NCBI GenBank assembly: GCA_030609055.1
Contig: JAUWCZ010000011.1
Span: 1 to 24,000, forward strand
DNA length: 24,000 bases
Direction of reading: 5' to 3'
Source: Chloroflexota bacterium
Lineage (GTDB): Bacteria > Chloroflexota > Anaerolineae > Anaerolineales > UBA11858
The position numbers and the translations under genes were made by a program. This document shows positions 12,410 to 22,266 of this stretch, one piece after another. The number at the start of each line of letters is the position of its first letter. The stretch's first letter is position 1. The notes under the pieces are model-generated. The model saw nothing but the letters and a program-made list of their open reading frames with translations. It ran no database searches and was not told the DNA's origin.

Positions 12410-12808
12410 TTATAGTTCATTTTGAGAGTTTGTTGTTCCCGCTGCGTGATGGAACTTCTGATTTTCCACATACTTACTTATTACCGGAACAATTTTCTCG
12501 CTGATTGTGAACACAGAATATCCAGTCTGCCAGTAGAAGTGACCATCACCAAAGCCTGATTTATTCAATTTTGCTGATGCTGTCCCTTTGATTTTTCCGA
12601 TAAACTGTGCAAGCGGAATTGTTCTTGGAATGTGAACTAACAAATGAATATGATCCTTCGTACCATTAAGGGCATATACTATGCCGCCCAAACCGATGGC
12701 TTTACTGCGAATATAATCGAACAATATTGGTTCAATCTCAGAAGTTATGGTTAGATCGCGATTTTTTGTCCCCCAAATAACATGATAGAACAACCTAGAA
12801 AATGACAT
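12410..12808 (-). CDS. tnpA: IS200/IS605-type Y1 (HUH) transposase, TnpA / REP-associated tyrosine transposase (RAYT)-like
   Basis: 132 aa. FYHVIWGTKNR N-terminus, HUH motif DHIHLLV, catalytic Tyr region WQTGYSVFT. A GGGGG SD lies 8 nt upstream. The gene is visibly more AT-rich than its neighbours. Confidence 0.85.
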   Translation of the reverse strand: MSFSRLFYHVIWGTKNRDLTITSEIEPILFDYIRSKAIGLGGIVYALNGTKDHIHLLVHIPRTIPLAQFIGKIKGTASAKLNKSGFGDGHFYWQTGYSVFTISEKIVPVISKYVENQKFHHAAGTTNSQNEL

Positions 12809-12942: not shown

Positions 12943-13380
12943 TCAAACTTCTAACAAAATCGTAACCGGTCCATCATTGTGGATTTCCACCAGCATATGA
13001 GCACCAAATTGACCCATTGCCGTAGATATTCCCAAATCCTCCAGGCAGGAAACGAAATAGGTTACTAATGGCTCTGCAACTGCGGGCGGAGCAGCATCTG
13101 TAAAGGAAGGCCGATGACCTTTTCTGGTATCCGCGTAAAGGGTAAACTGGGGGACGACCAGAGCTTCGCCCTCCACTTCCAACAGGGACAAATTCATCTT
13201 TCCAATTTCATCCTCAAAGATGCGTAAATGGGAAATTTTCCGAGCAAGTTTTTGGGTTTTCTCTCTGGTATCGTCCGGCCCCACGCCAAGCAAGATAACC
13301 AAGCCCTGGTTAACACCTGACAACAATTTGCCCCCTACTGAAACACATCCCTTTTGCACCCGCTGGATGAGCGCTTTCAT
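12943..13380 (-). CDS. dtd: D-aminoacyl-tRNA deacylase
   Basis: 145 aa. MKALIQRVQKGCVSVGGKLLSGVNQGLVILLGV... and the C-terminal NDGPVTILLE are typical of Dtd. It follows trpS by 3 nt. Confidence 0.9.
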   Translation of the reverse strand: MKALIQRVQKGCVSVGGKLLSGVNQGLVILLGVGPDDTREKTQKLARKISHLRIFEDEIGKMNLSLLEVEGEALVVPQFTLYADTRKGHRPSFTDAAPPAVAEPLVTYFVSCLEDLGISTAMGQFGAHMLVEIHNDGPVTILLEV

Positions 13381-13383
13381 TGC

Positions 13384-14385
13384 TTAAACCTTGGTACCAT
13401 AAAAACCGATTGCCTCTCGTACTTCTTTCATCGTCTTAGAAGCGATAACCCGCGCTCTTTTTGCCCCATCCAACAGGACTTCTTTTACAATATCCGGATC
13501 CTTTTCCAGGTCTGCCCGCTTTGAACGGAAAGGCACCAGGTGTTTATTAAGGTTCTTTGCCAGTTTACGTTTGCAGTCCACGCAGCCGATCTCCGCTTTG
13601 CGGCAATCCTGGTTGATCTGGTCGATCTCCTCAGGCGGAGAGAACACCTTATGCAGAGAAAACACATTGCAGACATCGGGGTCACCAGGATCACTACGTC
13701 GGATCCGCTGAGGATCTGTGACCATTTCCATCACTCGCTTTTCTGTTTCTTCAGGGGTCGCTGCTAACTCGATGTGATTATTGAGGCTTTTACTCATCTT
13801 CCGTTCACCGTCAATACCCAGTACTTTGGGAATTTCGGTCACTTTCGCATGGGGTTCTACTAGAATGTTTGTCTGGTAGCGATGGTTAAAGGATCGAACA
13901 ACCTCCCGGGCAAATTCAAGGTGCGGAATCTGGTCTGTGCCAACAGGCACTGTATCTGCTTTATAGAGTAAAATGTCGGCTGACATCAAGACAGGATACC
14001 CAACCAGTCCATAATTCACATTGTCTGGATTATCGCGCACCTTTTCTTTAAATGTCGGCAAAGCAGTGAGCTTCCCCAGAGGAGTTACCATGGAAAGGAT
14101 GGTGTGCAGCTCCATTACCTCCTGCACATGAGATTGGACAAAAATGATGCTTTGTTCCGGATCCATCCCGGCTGCCATCCAATCCAGAGTCATTTCCTGA
14201 GTATTGAGTTCCAGGTCCTTTGTGGTCTCTATTGTTGTTAAAGCATGGACATCCACAATACAGTAAACACACCTGTAATCATCCTGGAGGGCAACATAAT
14301 TTTTGATCGCTCCCAGGTAATTTCCCAAATGCTGCCGCCCGGTCGGCCTGGCACCAGAAAATACTCTGCCCTGCTTTTCAGCCAT
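13384..14385 (-). CDS. trpS: Tryptophan--tRNA ligase
   Basis: 333 aa. HIGH-region variant GARPTGRQHLGNYLGA and KMSKS loop (RKMSKSLNN), with TrpRS-like length and layout. Confidence 0.9.
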   Translation of the reverse strand: MAEKQGRVFSGARPTGRQHLGNYLGAIKNYVALQDDYRCVYCIVDVHALTTIETTKDLELNTQEMTLDWMAAGMDPEQSIIFVQSHVQEVMELHTILSMVTPLGKLTALPTFKEKVRDNPDNVNYGLVGYPVLMSADILLYKADTVPVGTDQIPHLEFAREVVRSFNHRYQTNILVEPHAKVTEIPKVLGIDGERKMSKSLNNHIELAATPEETEKRVMEMVTDPQRIRRSDPGDPDVCNVFSLHKVFSPPEEIDQINQDCRKAEIGCVDCKRKLAKNLNKHLVPFRSKRADLEKDPDIVKEVLLDGAKRARVIASKTMKEVREAIGFYGTKV

Positions 14386-14634
14386 TTATACCTTCTCCTT
14401 AAGATATTCTTCGTACAGCCGCAGCACTTCTTGTGGTTCTATATGCTGTCCTGTCTGAGCTTTCGAATAAATCAAATCATCATTCACAGAAATTTCATAT
14501 CTCCCAGCATCCGAGGGAATTAATGCAATTTCAGAAATATTATTTACATATTCCTTTAAGAAAGCGCCCATCAAACTGATGGCTCTGGGTAAATAGTTTC
14601 AAGGAACACAATATTCAATAGATATCCTATACAT
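14386..14634 (-). CDS. SelW/Rdx-family selenoprotein (CxxU), with in-frame UGA = Sec at 14601-14599
   Basis: ATG 14634 is preceded by AGGAGAAAAGGAAAA. The translation is MYRISIEYCVP-U-NYLPRAISLMGAFLKEYVNNISEIALIPSDAGRYEISVNDDLIYSKAQTGQHIEPQEVLRLYEEYLKEKV. This matches the Rdx pattern IEYCxx[C/U]xxxxRA plus the conserved ALIP..G.FEV.V.G.LI.SK core. The track shows only the part after the TGA (14386..14574, TTG start). The stop TAA (14388-14386) abuts the trpS ATG. Confidence 0.8.
14560..14598 (-). promoter_or_regulatory. Candidate bacterial SECIS hairpin downstream of the UGA
   Basis: The mRNA reads UGA-AACUAUUUACCCAGAG-CCAUCA-GUU-UGAUGG-GCGCU. The perfect 6-bp stem CCAUCA/UGAUGG (14582-14568) has a G/U apical loop starting 22 nt after the UGA. 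It can be extended by GAG/C.C pairs with a bulged G. Confidence 0.5.
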
Positions 14635-14784
14635 TTTTCCTTTTCTCCTGTACCAATAATTTTCCAAAATAGTATATCATAAGCCATCTCGCACTATTGC
14701 CATCCCTGTGAGAGATATCGATAATGCTGAGACTGAAATGACTCCACTTCAACAACGCTCATGTGCTACAATCGAAGTGAACCT

Positions 14785-15630
14785 ATGAGTAAGTTAACCG
14801 ATATCCGCCCCTCACCGTTGGCTGGCCGCTGGTATCCAGCAGATCCGAAAACACTGGCTGACAGCGTGGATGATTTTATCAACCAGGCAGAAATTCCGGA
14901 AATTTCCGGGAAGGTTATTGCCCTTGTTTCTCCCCATGCTGGTCATATGTATTCCGGACAAGTTGCAGGGCATTGTTTTGCTGCAATTCGAGATCTCAGT
15001 CCAGAACTTGTTGTGATCCTTTCTCCATATCATCCATATCACTCTCCTGTTATATTTACCACCACCCATCAGGCCTACGAAACCCCCCTTGGGATAGTAC
15101 CAGTAGATCATGATATGTTAGAGACTGTCGCTAAGGGACTACTTGACAAGACTGGAATAAAACTCTCCCGGGTTACCAACGATGGAGAACATGCGGTAGA
15201 GATCCTGCTTCCTTTTTTCCAACGCGCCCTGGCGGAAGAATTCCGTCTGTTGCCGCTGATGATCCGGCAACAGGACTCGGATGTAATGCAAGCGCTGGGG
15301 GACATCCTGGCTGAAATTCTGGCAGAAAGGAATGTCTTTTTGACTGCCAGTACTGACCTGTCCCACAATAAATCGGCAGAGAAAGCCCTGGGTCTTGACC
15401 AGACTATCATTGATCACATCATCTCCTTGGATCCGGATGGCCTCTACCAGGCTCAAAGATCGTTCACCGGGGAAGCTTGCGGGTTAGATGCTCTGGCTGC
15501 TCTACTCTGGGCTGCTAAAAGTCGAGGTTCCGTTACTGCCCATCATTTGCACTACGCCCATTCTGGTGATATTACCGGAGATAATACCGGTGTAGTTGGG
15601 TACGCAGCTGCAGTGCTCACTAGAGAATAA
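14785..15630 (+). CDS. MEMO1-family protein (AmmeMemoRadiSam system protein B)
   Basis: RPSPLAGRWYPADPKTLADSVDDFI...VSPHAGHMYSGQVAGHCF and the C-terminal VVGYAAAV are typical of the family. ATG 14785 is preferred over the track start 14761. TGcTACAAT (14764-14772) lies 12 nt upstream. Confidence 0.8.
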   Translation: MSKLTDIRPSPLAGRWYPADPKTLADSVDDFINQAEIPEISGKVIALVSPHAGHMYSGQVAGHCFAAIRDLSPELVVILSPYHPYHSPVIFTTTHQAYETPLGIVPVDHDMLETVAKGLLDKTGIKLSRVTNDGEHAVEILLPFFQRALAEEFRLLPLMIRQQDSDVMQALGDILAEILAERNVFLTASTDLSHNKSAEKALGLDQTIIDHIISLDPDGLYQAQRSFTGEACGLDALAALLWAAKSRGSVTAHHLHYAHSGDITGDNTGVVGYAAAVLTRE

Positions 15631-15646
15631 CTCATTGTAATCACCT

Positions 15647-16966
15647 ATGATTTGGAACTTTCTGTTCATACTCCTGCTGGTTGCCTTAAACGGTTTTTTT
15701 GTGGCAACAGAATTTGCGGTCATCACAGCCCGAAAAACCCGTGTCCGCCTACAGGCTGAGGCGGGTAATGCTGCCGCAAAGCAGGTATTAATTTGGTTGG
15801 ATAATCCGGAAGCCCGGGACCGTTTAATTGCAGCTGCCCAATTAGGAATCACCATTGTCAGTCTGGCATTGGGCGCGGTGGGGGAAAACACATTTGAAGT
15901 CTTGCTGAAACCGGTTTTTCATTCCCTTGAGATATCGTTTCAGTGGAGCCGAATCGAACCGGTCCTGACTGCGCTGCCACTGATATTTTCTTTAATCATT
16001 GTCACCAGCTTGCATGTTGTCCTTGGTGAACAGGTCCCAAAAGTAGCCGCTCTTGAATCTCCAGAAAAGATTGCGTTCTTCTCTGCTCAACCTATGAAGT
16101 GGTTCAATACAATATTTACCTGGTTTGTAGACATTTTAGATTGGGCTACTCATAGCATACTACGCTTGGTAGGGGTAAAAAGAACCGGGGGCAGCCATTC
16201 GATTATCTATACCGTAGATGAATTAAAGGAGATCCTGGTTGAATCGGAACAAGTTGGGACGATTGAATCCCCTCAACGGGAAATGATGCATGCGATTTTT
16301 GACTTCAACCGATTGCTTGTGCGTCAGGTGATGCTCCCACGGACAGAGATTATCGCCTTTCCAGTGGAGATCCCCTTGGATGAAAGTATTCAGACTGCTG
16401 TGCAAAACCGTTTTACAAGATTTCCTGTATTTGAGGGTGATCTAGACAATATCATCGGCGTGGTTCATATTAAAGATTTGCTCCGCGCTCAACAAGACAA
16501 GAGCGGTGAATCCTTGACTATGGGTTCTCTTGCCCGTGAACCACTGTTTATCCCCGAGAGCAGCACGGTTAGAGCGTTGTTGGGTCATTTCCGCACACAC
16601 AGCCTTCATATTGCCATCGTCCTGGATGAATACGGCGGTACCGCCGGTTTAATTACTTTGGAAGATGCCCTGGAGGAGATTGTAGGAGAAATCAGCGATC
16701 CATTTGATATAGTTGCTCCGGAGATTCAGCGCATTAACCAGAATACCGTCCTGGTGGACGGATTGACCGCCATCGATGAAGTTAACCAGACTCTGGGAAC
16801 CAAATTCAATGATCCAAATTACGACACCATCGCTGGATATTTATTAGGTCATCTGGATCGGATACCTGTCCAGGGAGAAACCATCATGCTCGCAGGGGGA
16901 ATCCAACTGCAGGTAGCAGCCATGGATGGTTTGAGAATCTCCAAAGTCCGCATACAGGGTGTGTGA
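15647..16966 (+). CDS. CNNM/DUF21-CBS-CorC_HlyC family protein (hemolysin-family, putative Mg/Co efflux-type)
   Basis: The N-terminal DUF21 TM domain has the ATEFA motif ([12 protein letters not shown]). This is followed by a CBS pair and a C-terminal CorC_HlyC-like domain ([19 protein letters not shown]). Confidence 0.85.
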
Positions 16967-21112: not shown

Positions 21113-21222
21113 ACTTTTGATTGCATCTCCATAATTATTTTCGGGTGATACTATGAAAGCGTTCCTGCCGTAGTGCTAAACTAAGAGTAGTGACAAACCA
21201 GTTTAGCAAAAGGAGGAACGCT

Positions 21223-22266
21223 ATGTATCCATTTTACCTTGGAATTGACCTGCATCTCAAGCGAACTTACCTGGTACTGATGAACGCCGAGGGGGAAGTG
21301 ATCGATAAACGGCGCCTGAAGAACACTGAGATGGCATCCTATATTTCCAAAAATATACCCAAAGAAACCTATGCGGTGATGGAGGCAACCCGGAACTGGC
21401 CCTTCTTCTATGATCTTTTAGAGAAGCATGTTGAGCGGGTTGAGCTGGCGCATGCCAAGGGTGTCCGGATGATCGCGGAAGCAGCAGTGAAGACGGACCA
21501 GATCGATGCCTCAGTGCTGGCGCATTTGGCAAGGTTAAACTTTTTGCCAATCGCCTATGCCGCGCCCAAGGAGATTCGTGATTTACGGCAGCATCTGCGC
21601 TACCGGGAATGGTTGATAGACGAACGGCGGCGGGGGAAGAACCGGATCCATGCCGTTTTGGCGGGATACAACCAGGCCTCCCCTGTGACAGATCTGTTTG
21701 GCCGCTCAGGACGGGAATGGCTGAAGGAGATAGCTGAGAAGGAGCTGCGCCCTACATCCCGACGAGTGGTCCTCGAGACGCTGACTTTGATCGATCAGCT
21801 GAATGCTCAGATCAAGGAATTGGCGAAGGATATCCCGCTACCAGAGGAGCTGAAGCCAAAGGCTGAGCTGCTGATGAGTATGCCGGGTATAGGTAAGCTG
21901 CTGTCAGCGGTGATCCTGGCAGAGATCGGTGACATCATCCGATTCAAATCGCCCAAGGCATTGTGCAACTGGGCTGGATTGACACCCCGAGTGCATAAAA
22001 GCGATACAGTGGTGAGACATGGACGGATCTCTAAGCAGGGTTCACGTTACTTGCGATCTGCGATGGTGTGTGCTGCTATGACGGCATGTCGGATCAGTCC
22101 ACGTTGGTACCGGGTGTATGAGAACCTGGCCCGACGGATTGGGCGCAGAGGAGCCAAAGTGGCAGTGGGGCGACGGTTATTGACGGTGGTTTATTTTATG
22201 TTGAAACGAAACCAACCGTATGAAGAAGATTATGAGCAGCGACGAGTAGCTGAACAGGGAGCCTGA
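21223..22266 (+). CDS. IS110-family transposase/recombinase (DEDD RuvC-like N-domain + Transposase_20 C-domain)
   Basis: The N-terminus MYPFYLGIDLHLKRTYLV has the DEDD first Asp, followed by AVMEATRNW. The C-terminal motifs are LMSMPGIGKLLSAVILAEIGDIIRFKSPKALCNWAGLTPRVHKSD...GRISKQGSRYLR. An AGGAGG SD (21211-21216) lies 6 nt upstream of ATG 21223. The track start GTG 21190 is less likely. Confidence 0.9.
   Translation: MYPFYLGIDLHLKRTYLVLMNAEGEVIDKRRLKNTEMASYISKNIPKETYAVMEATRNWPFFYDLLEKHVERVELAHAKGVRMIAEAAVKTDQIDASVLAHLARLNFLPIAYAAPKEIRDLRQHLRYREWLIDERRRGKNRIHAVLAGYNQASPVTDLFGRSGREWLKEIAEKELRPTSRRVVLETLTLIDQLNAQIKELAKDIPLPEELKPKAELLMSMPGIGKLLSAVILAEIGDIIRFKSPKALCNWAGLTPRVHKSDTVVRHGRISKQGSRYLRSAMVCAAMTACRISPRWYRVYENLARRIGRRGAKVAVGRRLLTVVYFMLKRNQPYEEDYEQRRVAEQGA

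What the first reader, a model, noticed from the sequence alone, without database searches (positions are those of the whole stretch)
14386..14634. Hidden SelW/Rdx-family selenoprotein: in-frame UGA inside a CxxU redox motif, truncated by the ORF caller
The track reports only a 62-aa ORF with a TTG start.
- Reading the minus strand on through TGA (14601-14599) reaches an ATG (14634) with a strong SD (AGGAGAAAAGGAAAA-ATG).
- The added N-terminus MYRISIEYCVP-U-NYLPRA reproduces the Rdx/SelW thioredoxin-like motif IEYCxx(C/U)xxxxRA.
- The rest (ISEIALIPSDAGRYEISVNDDLIYSK) is the conserved core of the same family.
- TGA is a normal stop elsewhere in the window (16964-16966, 22264-22266), so this is not a reassigned code.
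- The gene is packed against trpS (TAA immediately followed by the trpS ATG), forming a selW-like-trpS-dtd operon.
Standard annotation would miss or truncate this gene.
Basis: partly seen in the sequence, partly recalled or inferred. Interest (0 to 1): 0.75.

Follow-up and report, generated by a model that had tools for sequence, protein, structure and literature searches.

The report
SelW-like selenoprotein gene, annotated truncated
This is a small redox protein gene of a well-known family in which a UGA "stop" codon almost certainly encodes selenocysteine, so gene callers record only its back two-thirds; it is a real but ordinary bacterial selenoprotein in an Anaerolineales (Chloroflexota) genome.

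Summary
On the minus strand, ATG 14634 to TAA 14386 is an 82-codon frame with one in-frame TGA (14601-14599) inside IEYCVP-U-NY.

- **Family:** with U read as C, the product scores 69.4 bits on Pfam Rdx and passes NCBIfam TIGR02174 (CXXU_selWTH). The truncated ORF scores 39.9. The UGA aligns with the second Cys of CxxC in solved bacterial Rdx structures.
- **Conservation:** 29 of 29 related Anaerolineales species carry the gene directly upstream of trpS-dtd, always with TGA and never Cys. Three more distant loci (two lineages) have the TGA too.
- **Selection:** codons upstream of the TGA are under purifying selection (pN/pS 0.23). The 5' leader read in the same frame gives 0.91.
- **SECIS:** a hairpin 21 nt after the UGA (loop AGUUU) meets the published geometry. 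Its loop codons are frozen and its stems change in a compensatory way between clades. Its folding energy is unremarkable.
- **Genetic code:** TGA is the commonest stop in the window, so the code is not reassigned.
- **Not shown:** selA, selB, selC and selD could not be examined for this genome. Support is indirect, from Anaerolineales single-cell genomes and a Sec-peroxiredoxin on a related contig.

SelW-like CxxU proteins are a long-known bacterial selenoprotein family, so this is a new member of a known kind. Interest is low to moderate.

The parts
14386..14634 (-). Full coding sequence of the SelW-like (Rdx family) selenoprotein: 82 codons including one Sec-UGA, plus the TAA stop
   Evidence: Translation. 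Pfam Rdx 69.4 bits over residues 3-73 and TIGR02174 55.1 bits. The same frame is conserved in 29 related species.
14599..14610 (-). CxxU redox motif: Cys codon TGT 14610-14608, Val, Pro, then Sec codon TGA 14601-14599
   Evidence: The TGA aligns with the second Cys of CxxC in PDB 2fa8 and 3dex and in the Cys-form homolog P0003. Cys -3 and TGA are each 29/29 invariant.
14566..14583 (-). Candidate bacterial SECIS hairpin GCCAUC-AGUUU-GAUGG(G)C; the apical loop is at 14577-14573 and starts 21 nt after the UGA
   Evidence: Present at the same place in all relatives with clade-specific stems. The loop codons are frozen. The geometry matches the published bSECIS model (PMC13188914). Energy is not exceptional.
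14645..14649 (-). Shine-Dalgarno AGGAG, 10 nt upstream of the ATG
   Evidence: Sequence. AGGAG-like motifs sit at the same distance upstream of the conserved ATG in most relatives ('up20' column).
14671..14681 (-). Possible -10 region (overlapping TATGAT / TGATATACT); low confidence
   Evidence: The promoter scan hit ends at 14676, but hits are no more numerous than in shuffles. The block is conserved in the 87% relative L009 while sequence further upstream diverges.
13384..14385 (-). trpS (tryptophanyl-tRNA synthetase), whose ATG abuts the Rdx TAA
   Evidence: PF00579. The Rdx-stop to trpS-start gap is -4 to +18 nt in the 25 relatives where both ends could be measured.
12943..13380 (-). dtd (D-aminoacyl-tRNA deacylase), third gene of the operon
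   Evidence: PF02580. It is found directly after trpS in all 30 lineages examined.

Best explanation
The locus encodes an 82-residue SelW-like (Rdx family) thiol/selenol oxidoreductase in which UGA 14601-14599 is decoded as selenocysteine.

Inferred mechanism, from the established bacterial pathway:
- Translation starts at ATG 14634.
- When the ribosome reaches the UGA, the hairpin 21 nt downstream (14583-14566, loop AGUUU) is bound by SelB carrying GTP and Sec-tRNA(Sec). Sec is inserted instead of terminating.
- The product has a thioredoxin-like fold with a Cys9-x-x-Sec12 redox centre after the first beta-strand. It presumably cycles between selenol/thiol and selenenylsulfide forms.
- The gene is co-transcribed with trpS and dtd and packed tightly against them.

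Shown here: family membership, UGA/Cys alignment, conservation and purifying selection across the UGA, a conserved hairpin with the right geometry, and normal use of TGA as a stop.

Inferred, not shown: that Sec is actually inserted, that this genome has the machinery, and what the substrate is.
For: - **Family:** Pfam Rdx 69.4 bits (cutoff 22.6) and TIGR02174 CXXU_selWTH 55.1 bits (cutoff 34.2). PDB 2fa8 matches at E = 4e-10 and 3dex at 1e-9, with CxxC aligned on CxxU. P0003 CVDC aligns on CVPU.
- **Conservation:** TGA 29/29, Cys -3 29/29, and an ATG 11-12 codons upstream in every locus where starts were listed. More distant loci L052, L055 and L056 also read C-x-x-TGA.
- **Selection:** pN/pS is 0.225 for the 10 codons upstream of the TGA, 0.389 downstream, and 0.906 for the 5' leader read in the same frame.
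- **Hairpin position:** a stem of at least 5 bp sits at the fixed position in 21/27 species, against 18% of synonymous recodings.
- **Compensatory stems:** GCCAUC/GAUGG, GCCCUC/GAGGGU, GCUUUC/GGAAGC, GCUCUC/GAGAGU and, in L055, GCCGUC/GGCGGC. In register 7-12/18-23 there are 15 double-change cells against 4.7 in shuffles, 0/500.
- **Frozen loop codons:** Ser +8 is AGT in 28/28 (13.7% of Ser codons in pooled trpS). Leu +9 is only TTG or TTA. Other conserved Ser, Leu and Pro positions use 4-6 codons.
- **SECIS geometry:** loop 5-6 nt, G at loop position 2, 21 nt spacing. [quoted passage not shown]
- **Stop usage:** TGA ends 8 of 16 long ORFs in the window and the Rdx gene itself in 7 relatives.
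- **Lineage:** Anaerolineales single-cell genomes carry SelB and Sec-type formate dehydrogenases (PMC4959059). A related contig, L052, also has a peroxiredoxin with TGA at the peroxidatic Cys.
- **Literature:** SelW-like CxxU is a recognised bacterial selenoprotein family (PMC1088965, PMC1794560, PMC9312934).
Against: - No selA, selB, selD or tRNA-Sec was seen in the window or in about 0.6 Mb of related loci. The rest of this genome could not be examined.
- The hairpin is not thermodynamically exceptional. z = 0.04 against dinucleotide shuffles, and mean z = -0.19 against synonymous recodings, with 0 of 27 below 5%. The 30-nt segment folds at -7.0 kcal/mol, just short of the model's -7.5.
- There is no Rfam match.
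- The stem uses two registers among clades, so a single fixed structure pairs only 74-76% of cells. One register is not clearly better than shuffles on percent paired (51/500).
- Related sequences are not independent, so codon-fixation counts overstate significance.
- Prokaryotic SelW-like proteins are listed as 'predicted with high confidence', not experimentally verified (PMC13188914).
Confidence: 0.9

Rival explanations
1. Nonsense pseudogene, or a genuinely short gene. The TGA terminates translation and the functional product, if any, is the 61-62 aa protein starting at TTG 14574 or ATG 14571, as currently annotated.
For: This is what ORF callers and NCBI report. The 62-aa part alone still passes the Pfam threshold at 39.9 bits. 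No Sec machinery was seen in the DNA available.
Against: - TGA is kept in 29/29 species and 3 more distant loci, with no Cys or sense codon anywhere.
- The 10 codons upstream are under stronger purifying selection (pN/pS 0.225) than the downstream part.
- A conserved ATG and SD lie upstream.
- The truncated product would lack beta-strand 1 and the whole redox motif that defines the family.
Confidence: 0.03
2. Leader peptide plus attenuator. The 11-codon ORF MYRISIEYCVP-stop and the hairpin followed by GCGCUUUCUU act as a transcription terminator or attenuator controlling the downstream trpS-dtd genes.
For: The terminator scan flags exactly this hairpin and its T-rich tail at 14582-14568. The element sits upstream of an aminoacyl-tRNA synthetase gene, a class often regulated by leaders.
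Against: - The T-tract is not conserved: 1-3 T in the 10 nt after the stem in most relatives.
- One terminator-like hit is fewer than the shuffles give (mean 1.9).
- The 'leader' is homologous to the N-terminus of Rdx proteins and continues in frame into the Rdx core.
- It contains no Trp codon.
- No T-box or other Rfam leader was found.
Confidence: 0.02
3. UGA is read through as a standard amino acid (Trp, Cys, Gly or Arg). This could happen by near-cognate or suppressor decoding or by a locally reassigned code, giving a full-length protein without selenium.
For: Three database relatives are recorded with W at this position (P0030, P0040, P0083). Sec machinery is unverified for this genome.
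Against: - TGA is the most frequent terminator of long, well-supported genes in the window. It ends the Rdx gene itself in 7 relatives, so the code is standard.
- The W entries are most simply a gene caller's TGA=Trp table.
- The position is the second redox Cys of CxxC, where Trp, Gly or Arg would abolish the motif.
- A position-fixed hairpin with a frozen G-U loop is what SelB-dependent decoding requires.
Confidence: 0.04

Closest known systems
Prokaryotic selenoprotein W (SELENOW)-like proteins, Pfam PF10262 (Rdx), NCBIfam TIGR02174 CXXU_selWTH
   Same: Same family by profile score. It shares the CxxU motif, the small size (about 80 aa), and a SECIS hairpin immediately downstream of the UGA within the coding region. 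The family is described as the most abundant selenoprotein family in Sargasso Sea and GOS data and occurs in Deltaproteobacteria, Clostridia and Actinobacteria (PMC1088965, PMC1794560, PMC9312934).
   Different: This clade is from Anaerolineales (Chloroflexota). It is fixed in a tight operon with trpS and dtd in 30 lineages, and no Cys form was seen among them. I found no report of the trpS linkage.
Bacterial Cys-form Rdx proteins with solved structures: Atu0228 (PDB 2fa8), SAV_2001 (3dex), 'Selenoprotein W-related protein' (2p0g)
   Same: Alignable over residues 3-72 at E = 4e-10 to 1e-5. The CxxC lies on the CxxU, and the IPS-x-GG-x-FE-(I/V) core is shared.
   Different: They carry Cys rather than Sec, are about 105 aa with C-terminal extensions, and need no SECIS.
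Eukaryotic SelW / SelT / SelH / MIEN1 (Rdx12) thioredoxin-like family
   Same: Same Pfam family and the same CxxU/CxxC position. MIEN1 (PDB 2ljk) matches at E = 5e-5. It has a thioredoxin-like fold with a redox-active motif (PMC3527542).
   Different: Eukaryotic members use a 3'-UTR SECIS with SBP2 and eEFSec. The sequences are distant, and the cellular roles (14-3-3 and glutathione interactions) may not transfer.
E. coli fdhF-type bacterial SECIS / SelB recoding
   Same: A hairpin in the coding region just downstream of the UGA, with an apical loop carrying G-U. Spacing and loop size fall within the consensus model (PMC13188914).
   Different: The stem here is short (4-7 bp). The primary sequence is unrelated. 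Binding by SelB is untested.

Membership tests
Rdx / SelT-SelW-SelH family (PF10262; TIGR02174) | Profile score above the curated threshold | tested here: met
   PF10262 scores 69.4 bits against a 22.6 cutoff over profile positions 1-71 of 74. TIGR02174 scores 55.1 against 34.2.
Rdx / SelT-SelW-SelH family (PF10262; TIGR02174) | CxxC or CxxU redox motif near the N-terminus, after the first beta-strand | tested here: met
   IEYCVP-U-NY aligns to IRYCTQCNW (2fa8), IEYCTQCRW (3dex) and IEYCVDCRW (P0003).
Rdx / SelT-SelW-SelH family (PF10262; TIGR02174) | Thioredoxin-like fold | not tested
The fold is inferred from sequence homology to solved Rdx structures.
NF041051 SelTWH_Campy (equivalog) | Score above the equivalog cutoff | tested here: not met
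   72.8 bits against an 88 cutoff. The gene is related to this equivalog group but is not a member of it.
Bacterial selenoprotein (SelB/SECIS-dependent UGA recoding) | In-frame UGA aligned with a catalytic or redox Cys of homologs | tested here: met
   Two true CxxC homologs also appear among the representatives (P0053, P0056).
Bacterial selenoprotein (SelB/SECIS-dependent UGA recoding) | Coding conservation on both sides of the UGA across species | tested here: met
   TGA is 29/29. pN/pS is 0.225 upstream and 0.389 downstream, against 0.906 for the leader control.
Bacterial selenoprotein (SelB/SECIS-dependent UGA recoding) | bSECIS geometry: 3-9 nt apical loop, 4-16 bp upper stem, G in the first two loop positions, 16-37 nt from the UGA (PMC13188914) | tested here: met
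   The loop is AGUUU(G/A) or AGUGU (CGUGU in L029), with G at position 2. The stem is 4-7 bp, apart from one mismatch variant in L016. There are 21 nt between the UGA and the loop.
Bacterial selenoprotein (SelB/SECIS-dependent UGA recoding) | bSECIS stability: MFE of -7.5 kcal/mol or lower | tested here: inconclusive
   In the window the 30-nt segment folds at -7.0 and the 65-66 nt segment at -9.7 kcal/mol. Clade II relatives reach -10 to -11. None is better than shuffles or synonymous recodings.
Bacterial selenoprotein (SelB/SECIS-dependent UGA recoding) | selA, selB, selC (tRNA-Sec) and selD present in the same genome | not testable with these tools
   None is in the 24-kb window or the held loci. 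Lineage-level support comes from PMC4959059.
Bacterial selenoprotein (SelB/SECIS-dependent UGA recoding) | Selenium demonstrably incorporated at the UGA position | not testable with these tools
   This needs 75Se labelling or mass spectrometry.

The most novel reading that the evidence does not exclude
The invariant placement of an obligately Sec-containing SelW-like gene directly in front of trpS-dtd may be functional rather than incidental. The junctions are -4 to +18 nt, the arrangement holds in 30 lineages down to 70% TrpS identity, and no Cys form was seen. One possibility is that the efficiency of UGA/Sec decoding, and hence selenium supply, gates expression of the downstream tRNA-charging and proofreading genes through translational coupling or polarity. 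Another is that the selenoprotein redox-protects TrpRS or Dtd.
Probability: 0.07. Interest if true: 0.55.

Novelty: new member of a known kind. Interest (0 to 1): 0.25.

Why it matters
- **Annotation:** the main value is correction. The deposited product (62 aa, 'Rdx family protein') lacks its first beta-strand and its entire redox centre.
- **Scale of the error:** of 66 genuine relatives among cluster representatives, 61 lack the CxxC/U segment. Three more carry a spurious Trp at the Sec position. I checked the DNA upstream for only three of those lineages, and all three had TGA. Surveys of selenium use in Chloroflexota would therefore undercount this family.
- **Biology:** it marks this Anaerolineales lineage as very probably Sec-decoding. 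It also supplies a compact, well-sampled natural series of SECIS variants inside a coding region.
- **Open observation:** the conserved link to trpS-dtd is a small unexplained observation.
- **What it does not do:** it does not change what is known about selenoproteins.

Tried and rejected
- **Rfam.** The gathering-threshold scan of the whole window and a permissive scan of 14480-14660 found no SECIS or other relevant family, only chance snoRNA-like hits with E above 1.
- **Folding energy as evidence for the SECIS.** Rejected. It is no better than dinucleotide shuffles or synonymous recodings.
- **Covariance model of the hairpin (R1).** It recovered its own training set plus L031 (E = 0.012). 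It found no second element in the window and did not re-register the stems, so it added little.
- **Sec machinery.**
  - ARAGORN on the window and 30 loci found no tRNA at all.
  - Attempts to fetch the rest of the 35-kb contig gave one 5-kb flank without sel genes and two 'not on record' results.
- **Long multi-stretch hits P0016, P0037, P0059 and P0069.** These are Ig-like or repeat surface proteins, not Rdx domains.
- **Attenuator/terminator reading.** Rejected, because the T-tract is not conserved.
- **Literature search for an SelW-TrpRS link.** Nothing was found.

Full report
**What is in the sequence**

On the minus strand, an ATG at 14634-14632 is preceded by AGGAG (14649-14645, 10 nt upstream). 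It opens a frame that runs to TAA at 14388-14386. The frame has a single in-frame TGA at 14601-14599. The product is MYRISIEYCVP-[UGA]-NYLPRAISLMGAFLKEYVNNISEIALIPSDAGRYEISVNDDLIYSKAQTGQHIEPQEVLRLYEEYLKEKV.

The mechanical ORF list gives only the 62-aa TTG-start ORF 14386..14574. The public protein collection holds only 61-62 aa versions. These include NCBI's MCK4801149.1, 'Rdx family protein [Anaerolineales bacterium]'. The trpS ATG (14385) abuts the TAA, and dtd follows trpS.

**Family**

With U written as C, the 82-residue protein scores 69.4 bits on Pfam Rdx (PF10262, cutoff 22.6), covering profile positions 1-71 of 74. The truncated ORF scores 39.9 bits and covers only positions 23-71. 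NCBIfam TIGR02174 'CXXU_selWTH' is passed at 55.1 bits against a cutoff of 34.2. The Campylobacter-type equivalog NF041051 is not passed, at 72.8 bits against 88.

Against solved structures, the best matches are bacterial Cys-form Rdx proteins: Atu0228 (2fa8, E = 4e-10) and SAV_2001 (3dex, E = 1e-9). The eukaryotic MIEN1 (2ljk) is a weaker match. In these alignments the UGA position lies on the second Cys of CxxC. The same holds for the 41%-identical Cys-form homolog P0003, where CVDC aligns on CVPU.

**Organism and relatives**

A scan of species-representative genomes with the window's TrpS returned 28 Anaerolineales/Chloroflexota MAG loci at 75-90% TrpS identity. Close metagenomic copies were L001-L008, all identical across the region shown in alignment A1. 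L009 is an 87% relative.

In every one of the 29 species with DNA upstream of trpS, an Rdx gene sits directly before trpS. The codon at the CxxU position is TGA in all 29, and none has Cys. An ATG lies 11-12 codons upstream of the TGA in each locus where starts were listed, usually with an AGGAG-like motif before it.

More distant truncated relatives found by the exhaustive representative search also read C-x-x-TGA when the DNA is inspected. L052 has VYCTV*HY, and L055 and L056 have EYCAV*GY. With U written as C, they pass TIGR02174.

**Selection across the UGA**

The table below gives mean pairwise Nei-Gojobori proportions over the 29 species.

| Region | pS | pN | pN/pS |
|---|---|---|---|
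| 10 codons upstream of the TGA | 0.70 | 0.16 | 0.225 |
| 27 codons downstream of the TGA | not restated | not restated | 0.389 |
| 5' leader read in the same frame | not restated | not restated | 0.906 |

Synonymous sites upstream are near saturation while the peptide (Y-K-I-S-I-E-Y-C-V-P) is kept. This is the signature of translated sequence. It is incompatible with a pseudogene or with a start downstream of the TGA.

**The SECIS candidate**

Counting from the U of UGA as position 1, nucleotides 19-36 form GCCAUC-AGUUU-GAUGG(G)C, at window 14583-14566. A hairpin occupies the same position in all relatives.

The published bacterial SECIS model requires four things (PMC13188914):
- a 3-9 nt apical loop on a 4-16 bp stem;
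- a G in the first two loop positions;
- 16-37 nt between the UGA and the loop;
- an MFE of -7.5 kcal/mol or lower.

Here the loop is AGUUU(G/A) or AGUGU (CGUGU in L029). G is at position 2 and U at position 3 throughout. The stem is 4-7 bp and the spacing is 21 nt. The energy criterion is borderline. The window's 30-nt segment folds at -7.0 kcal/mol and the 65-66 nt segment at -9.7. Other clades reach -10 to -11.

I tested stability honestly and it carries no weight. The fold is no better than dinucleotide shuffles (z = 0.04). It is no better than synonymous recodings of the same peptide (mean z = -0.19, none of 27 below 5%).

Three other observations do carry weight:
1. **Position.** An uninterrupted stem of at least 5 bp closes at nucleotide 24 in 21 of 27 species, against 18% of synonymous recodings.
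2. **Compensatory stems.** The stems differ between clades but stay paired:
   - GCCAUC/GAUGG (GCCGUC/GAUGG with a G-U pair in L009);
   - GCCCUC/GAGGGU;
   - GCUUUC/GGAAGC;
   - GCUCUC/GAGAGU (L027), a double change relative to GCCCUC/GAGGGU;
   - GCCGUC/GGCGGC, with the same AGUUU loop, in the distant loci L055/L056, which are not linked to trpS.

   Several of these changes alter the encoded amino acids (I/L/F at +7; M/E at +10; G/A/S at +11). The protein sequence therefore co-varies to keep the RNA paired.
3. **Frozen loop codons.** Ser +8 is AGT in 28/28, although AGT is 13.7% of Ser codons in the pooled trpS genes. Leu +9 is only TTG or TTA. Conserved Ser -7, Ser +22, Leu +26 and Pro +4 each use 4-6 different codons.

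Because the clades use two registers that differ by one nucleotide, a single fixed structure pairs only 74-76% of cells. In register 7-12/18-23, percent paired, double-change cells (15 against 4.7) and the covariation score each beat all 500 shuffles. In register 7-12/19-24 the result is weaker. These counts are inflated by shared ancestry and should be read as qualitative.

Rfam has no matching family. A covariance model built from the element found no second copy in the window.

**Not a reassigned code**

TGA terminates 8 of the 16 ORFs of at least 200 aa in the window, more than TAA (7) or TAG (1). It also terminates the Rdx gene itself in 7 relatives.

**Sec machinery**

This is the one link I could not close. 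There is no tRNA of any kind in the window or in 30 related loci. tblastn found no SelA, SelB or SelD homolog in about 0.6 Mb of held DNA. Attempts to reach the remainder of the 35.4-kb contig gave no relevant genes.

Indirect support comes from two sources. Published Anaerolineales single-cell genomes encode the Sec-specific elongation factor and Sec-type formate dehydrogenases, and Anaerolinea thermophila encodes SelB (PMC4959059). The related contig L052 (TrpS 70% identical) carries a second gene with UGA at a catalytic Cys. It is a BCP-type peroxiredoxin reading FFPQAWTPV-UGA-TSQ, which aligns to ...TQVCTKE of PDB 2ywn. It was called as a 44-aa fragment.

**Rivals**

- **Pseudogene or short gene.** This is excluded for practical purposes by the conservation and pN/pS data.
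- **Leader peptide plus attenuator.** The terminator scan flags this hairpin and the GCGCTTTCTT tail. The reading fails for three reasons. The T-tract is absent in most relatives. The 'leader' is the homologous N-terminus of the family. No Trp codon is present.
- **Read-through with a standard amino acid.** This is not formally excluded without protein data. It is hard to reconcile with the redox-Cys position, the position-fixed G-U loop and normal TGA termination. The three database relatives with W at this site are best explained by a gene caller using a TGA=Trp table.

**Comparison with what is known**

SelW-like CxxU proteins were recognised as bacterial selenoproteins two decades ago. They were the most abundant selenoprotein family in the Sargasso Sea data, with 48 genes. 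They were catalogued in Deltaproteobacteria, Clostridia and Actinobacteria, with the remark that Cys forms are rare in Sec-using organisms (PMC1088965, PMC1794560). [quoted passage not shown]

The present gene meets every family criterion I could test, so it is a new member of a known kind. Two things are mildly new:
- **Operon.** The Rdx-trpS-dtd order is fixed in 30 lineages, with Rdx-stop to trpS-start gaps of -4 to +18 nt in the 25 relatives where they could be measured, and no Cys form among them. I found no report of such a link.
- **Extent of truncation.** Of 66 genuine hits among 50%-identity representatives, 61 lack the CxxC/U segment, 3 carry W, and 2 are true CxxC. I inspected the upstream DNA for only three of those lineages, so calling all 61 Sec forms is an extrapolation.

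**Verdict**

I put about 0.9 confidence on a genuine Sec-decoding SelW-like selenoprotein. A specialist would not be surprised. The value lies in annotation correction and in a well-sampled natural SECIS series. Interest is 0.25.

Noticed in passing
L052:10772-11017 (+): A BCP-type peroxiredoxin has an in-frame TGA exactly at the peroxidatic Cys (FFPQAWTPV*TSQ, aligned to TQVCTKE of PDB 2ywn). It was called as a 44-aa fragment. It lies on the same contig as a Sec-form Rdx-trpS-dtd, so it is a second probable selenoprotein in a related lineage.
   Followed up: partly
window 14602-14604 (-) and the same codon in L009-L037: The codon just before the Sec-UGA is CCT in all 23 species with Pro there and GTT in the 4 with Val, whereas Pro at +4 uses all four codons. 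So the base immediately 5' of the UGA is U in 27 of the 29 species (the other two have A or C). The base after the UGA is A in most species. This may be a context requirement for Sec decoding or for anti-termination.
   Followed up: no
P0030, P0040, P0083 (public protein representatives): Three Rdx relatives are recorded with Trp at the Sec position (YCAAWNY, YCAVWGY, FCVVWNY). A gene caller most likely applied a TGA=Trp table. This is a different annotation error from truncation.
   Followed up: no
L025 and L036: Two contigs of one MAG (MFD03804.bin.2.113) each carry their own Rdx-trpS-dtd copy, with different sequences. Either the bin mixes two organisms or the operon is duplicated. The trpS frame appears broken in L035 and L036, probably from long-read frameshift errors.
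   Followed up: no
window 12410-12808 (-); also L009:1906-2115 and L015:3403-3798: An IS200-type Y1 transposase gene lies directly downstream of dtd, at the same place in at least three related genomes. An IS110-family transposase lies at window 21190-22266.
   Followed up: no
window 14761-15630 (+): A Memo-like protein gene (PF01875) is divergently transcribed from the Rdx operon across a 126-nt intergenic region, followed by CNNM/CorC and PriA. Memo is adjacent in roughly half of the relatives and a few kb away in others.
   Followed up: partly
L055:3139-3426 and L056:6059-6346: In a more distant Sec-form Rdx lineage that is not linked to trpS, the gene is followed by a GYD-domain protein (PF08734) in two different genomic contexts. 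This may be an alternative conserved partner.
   Followed up: no
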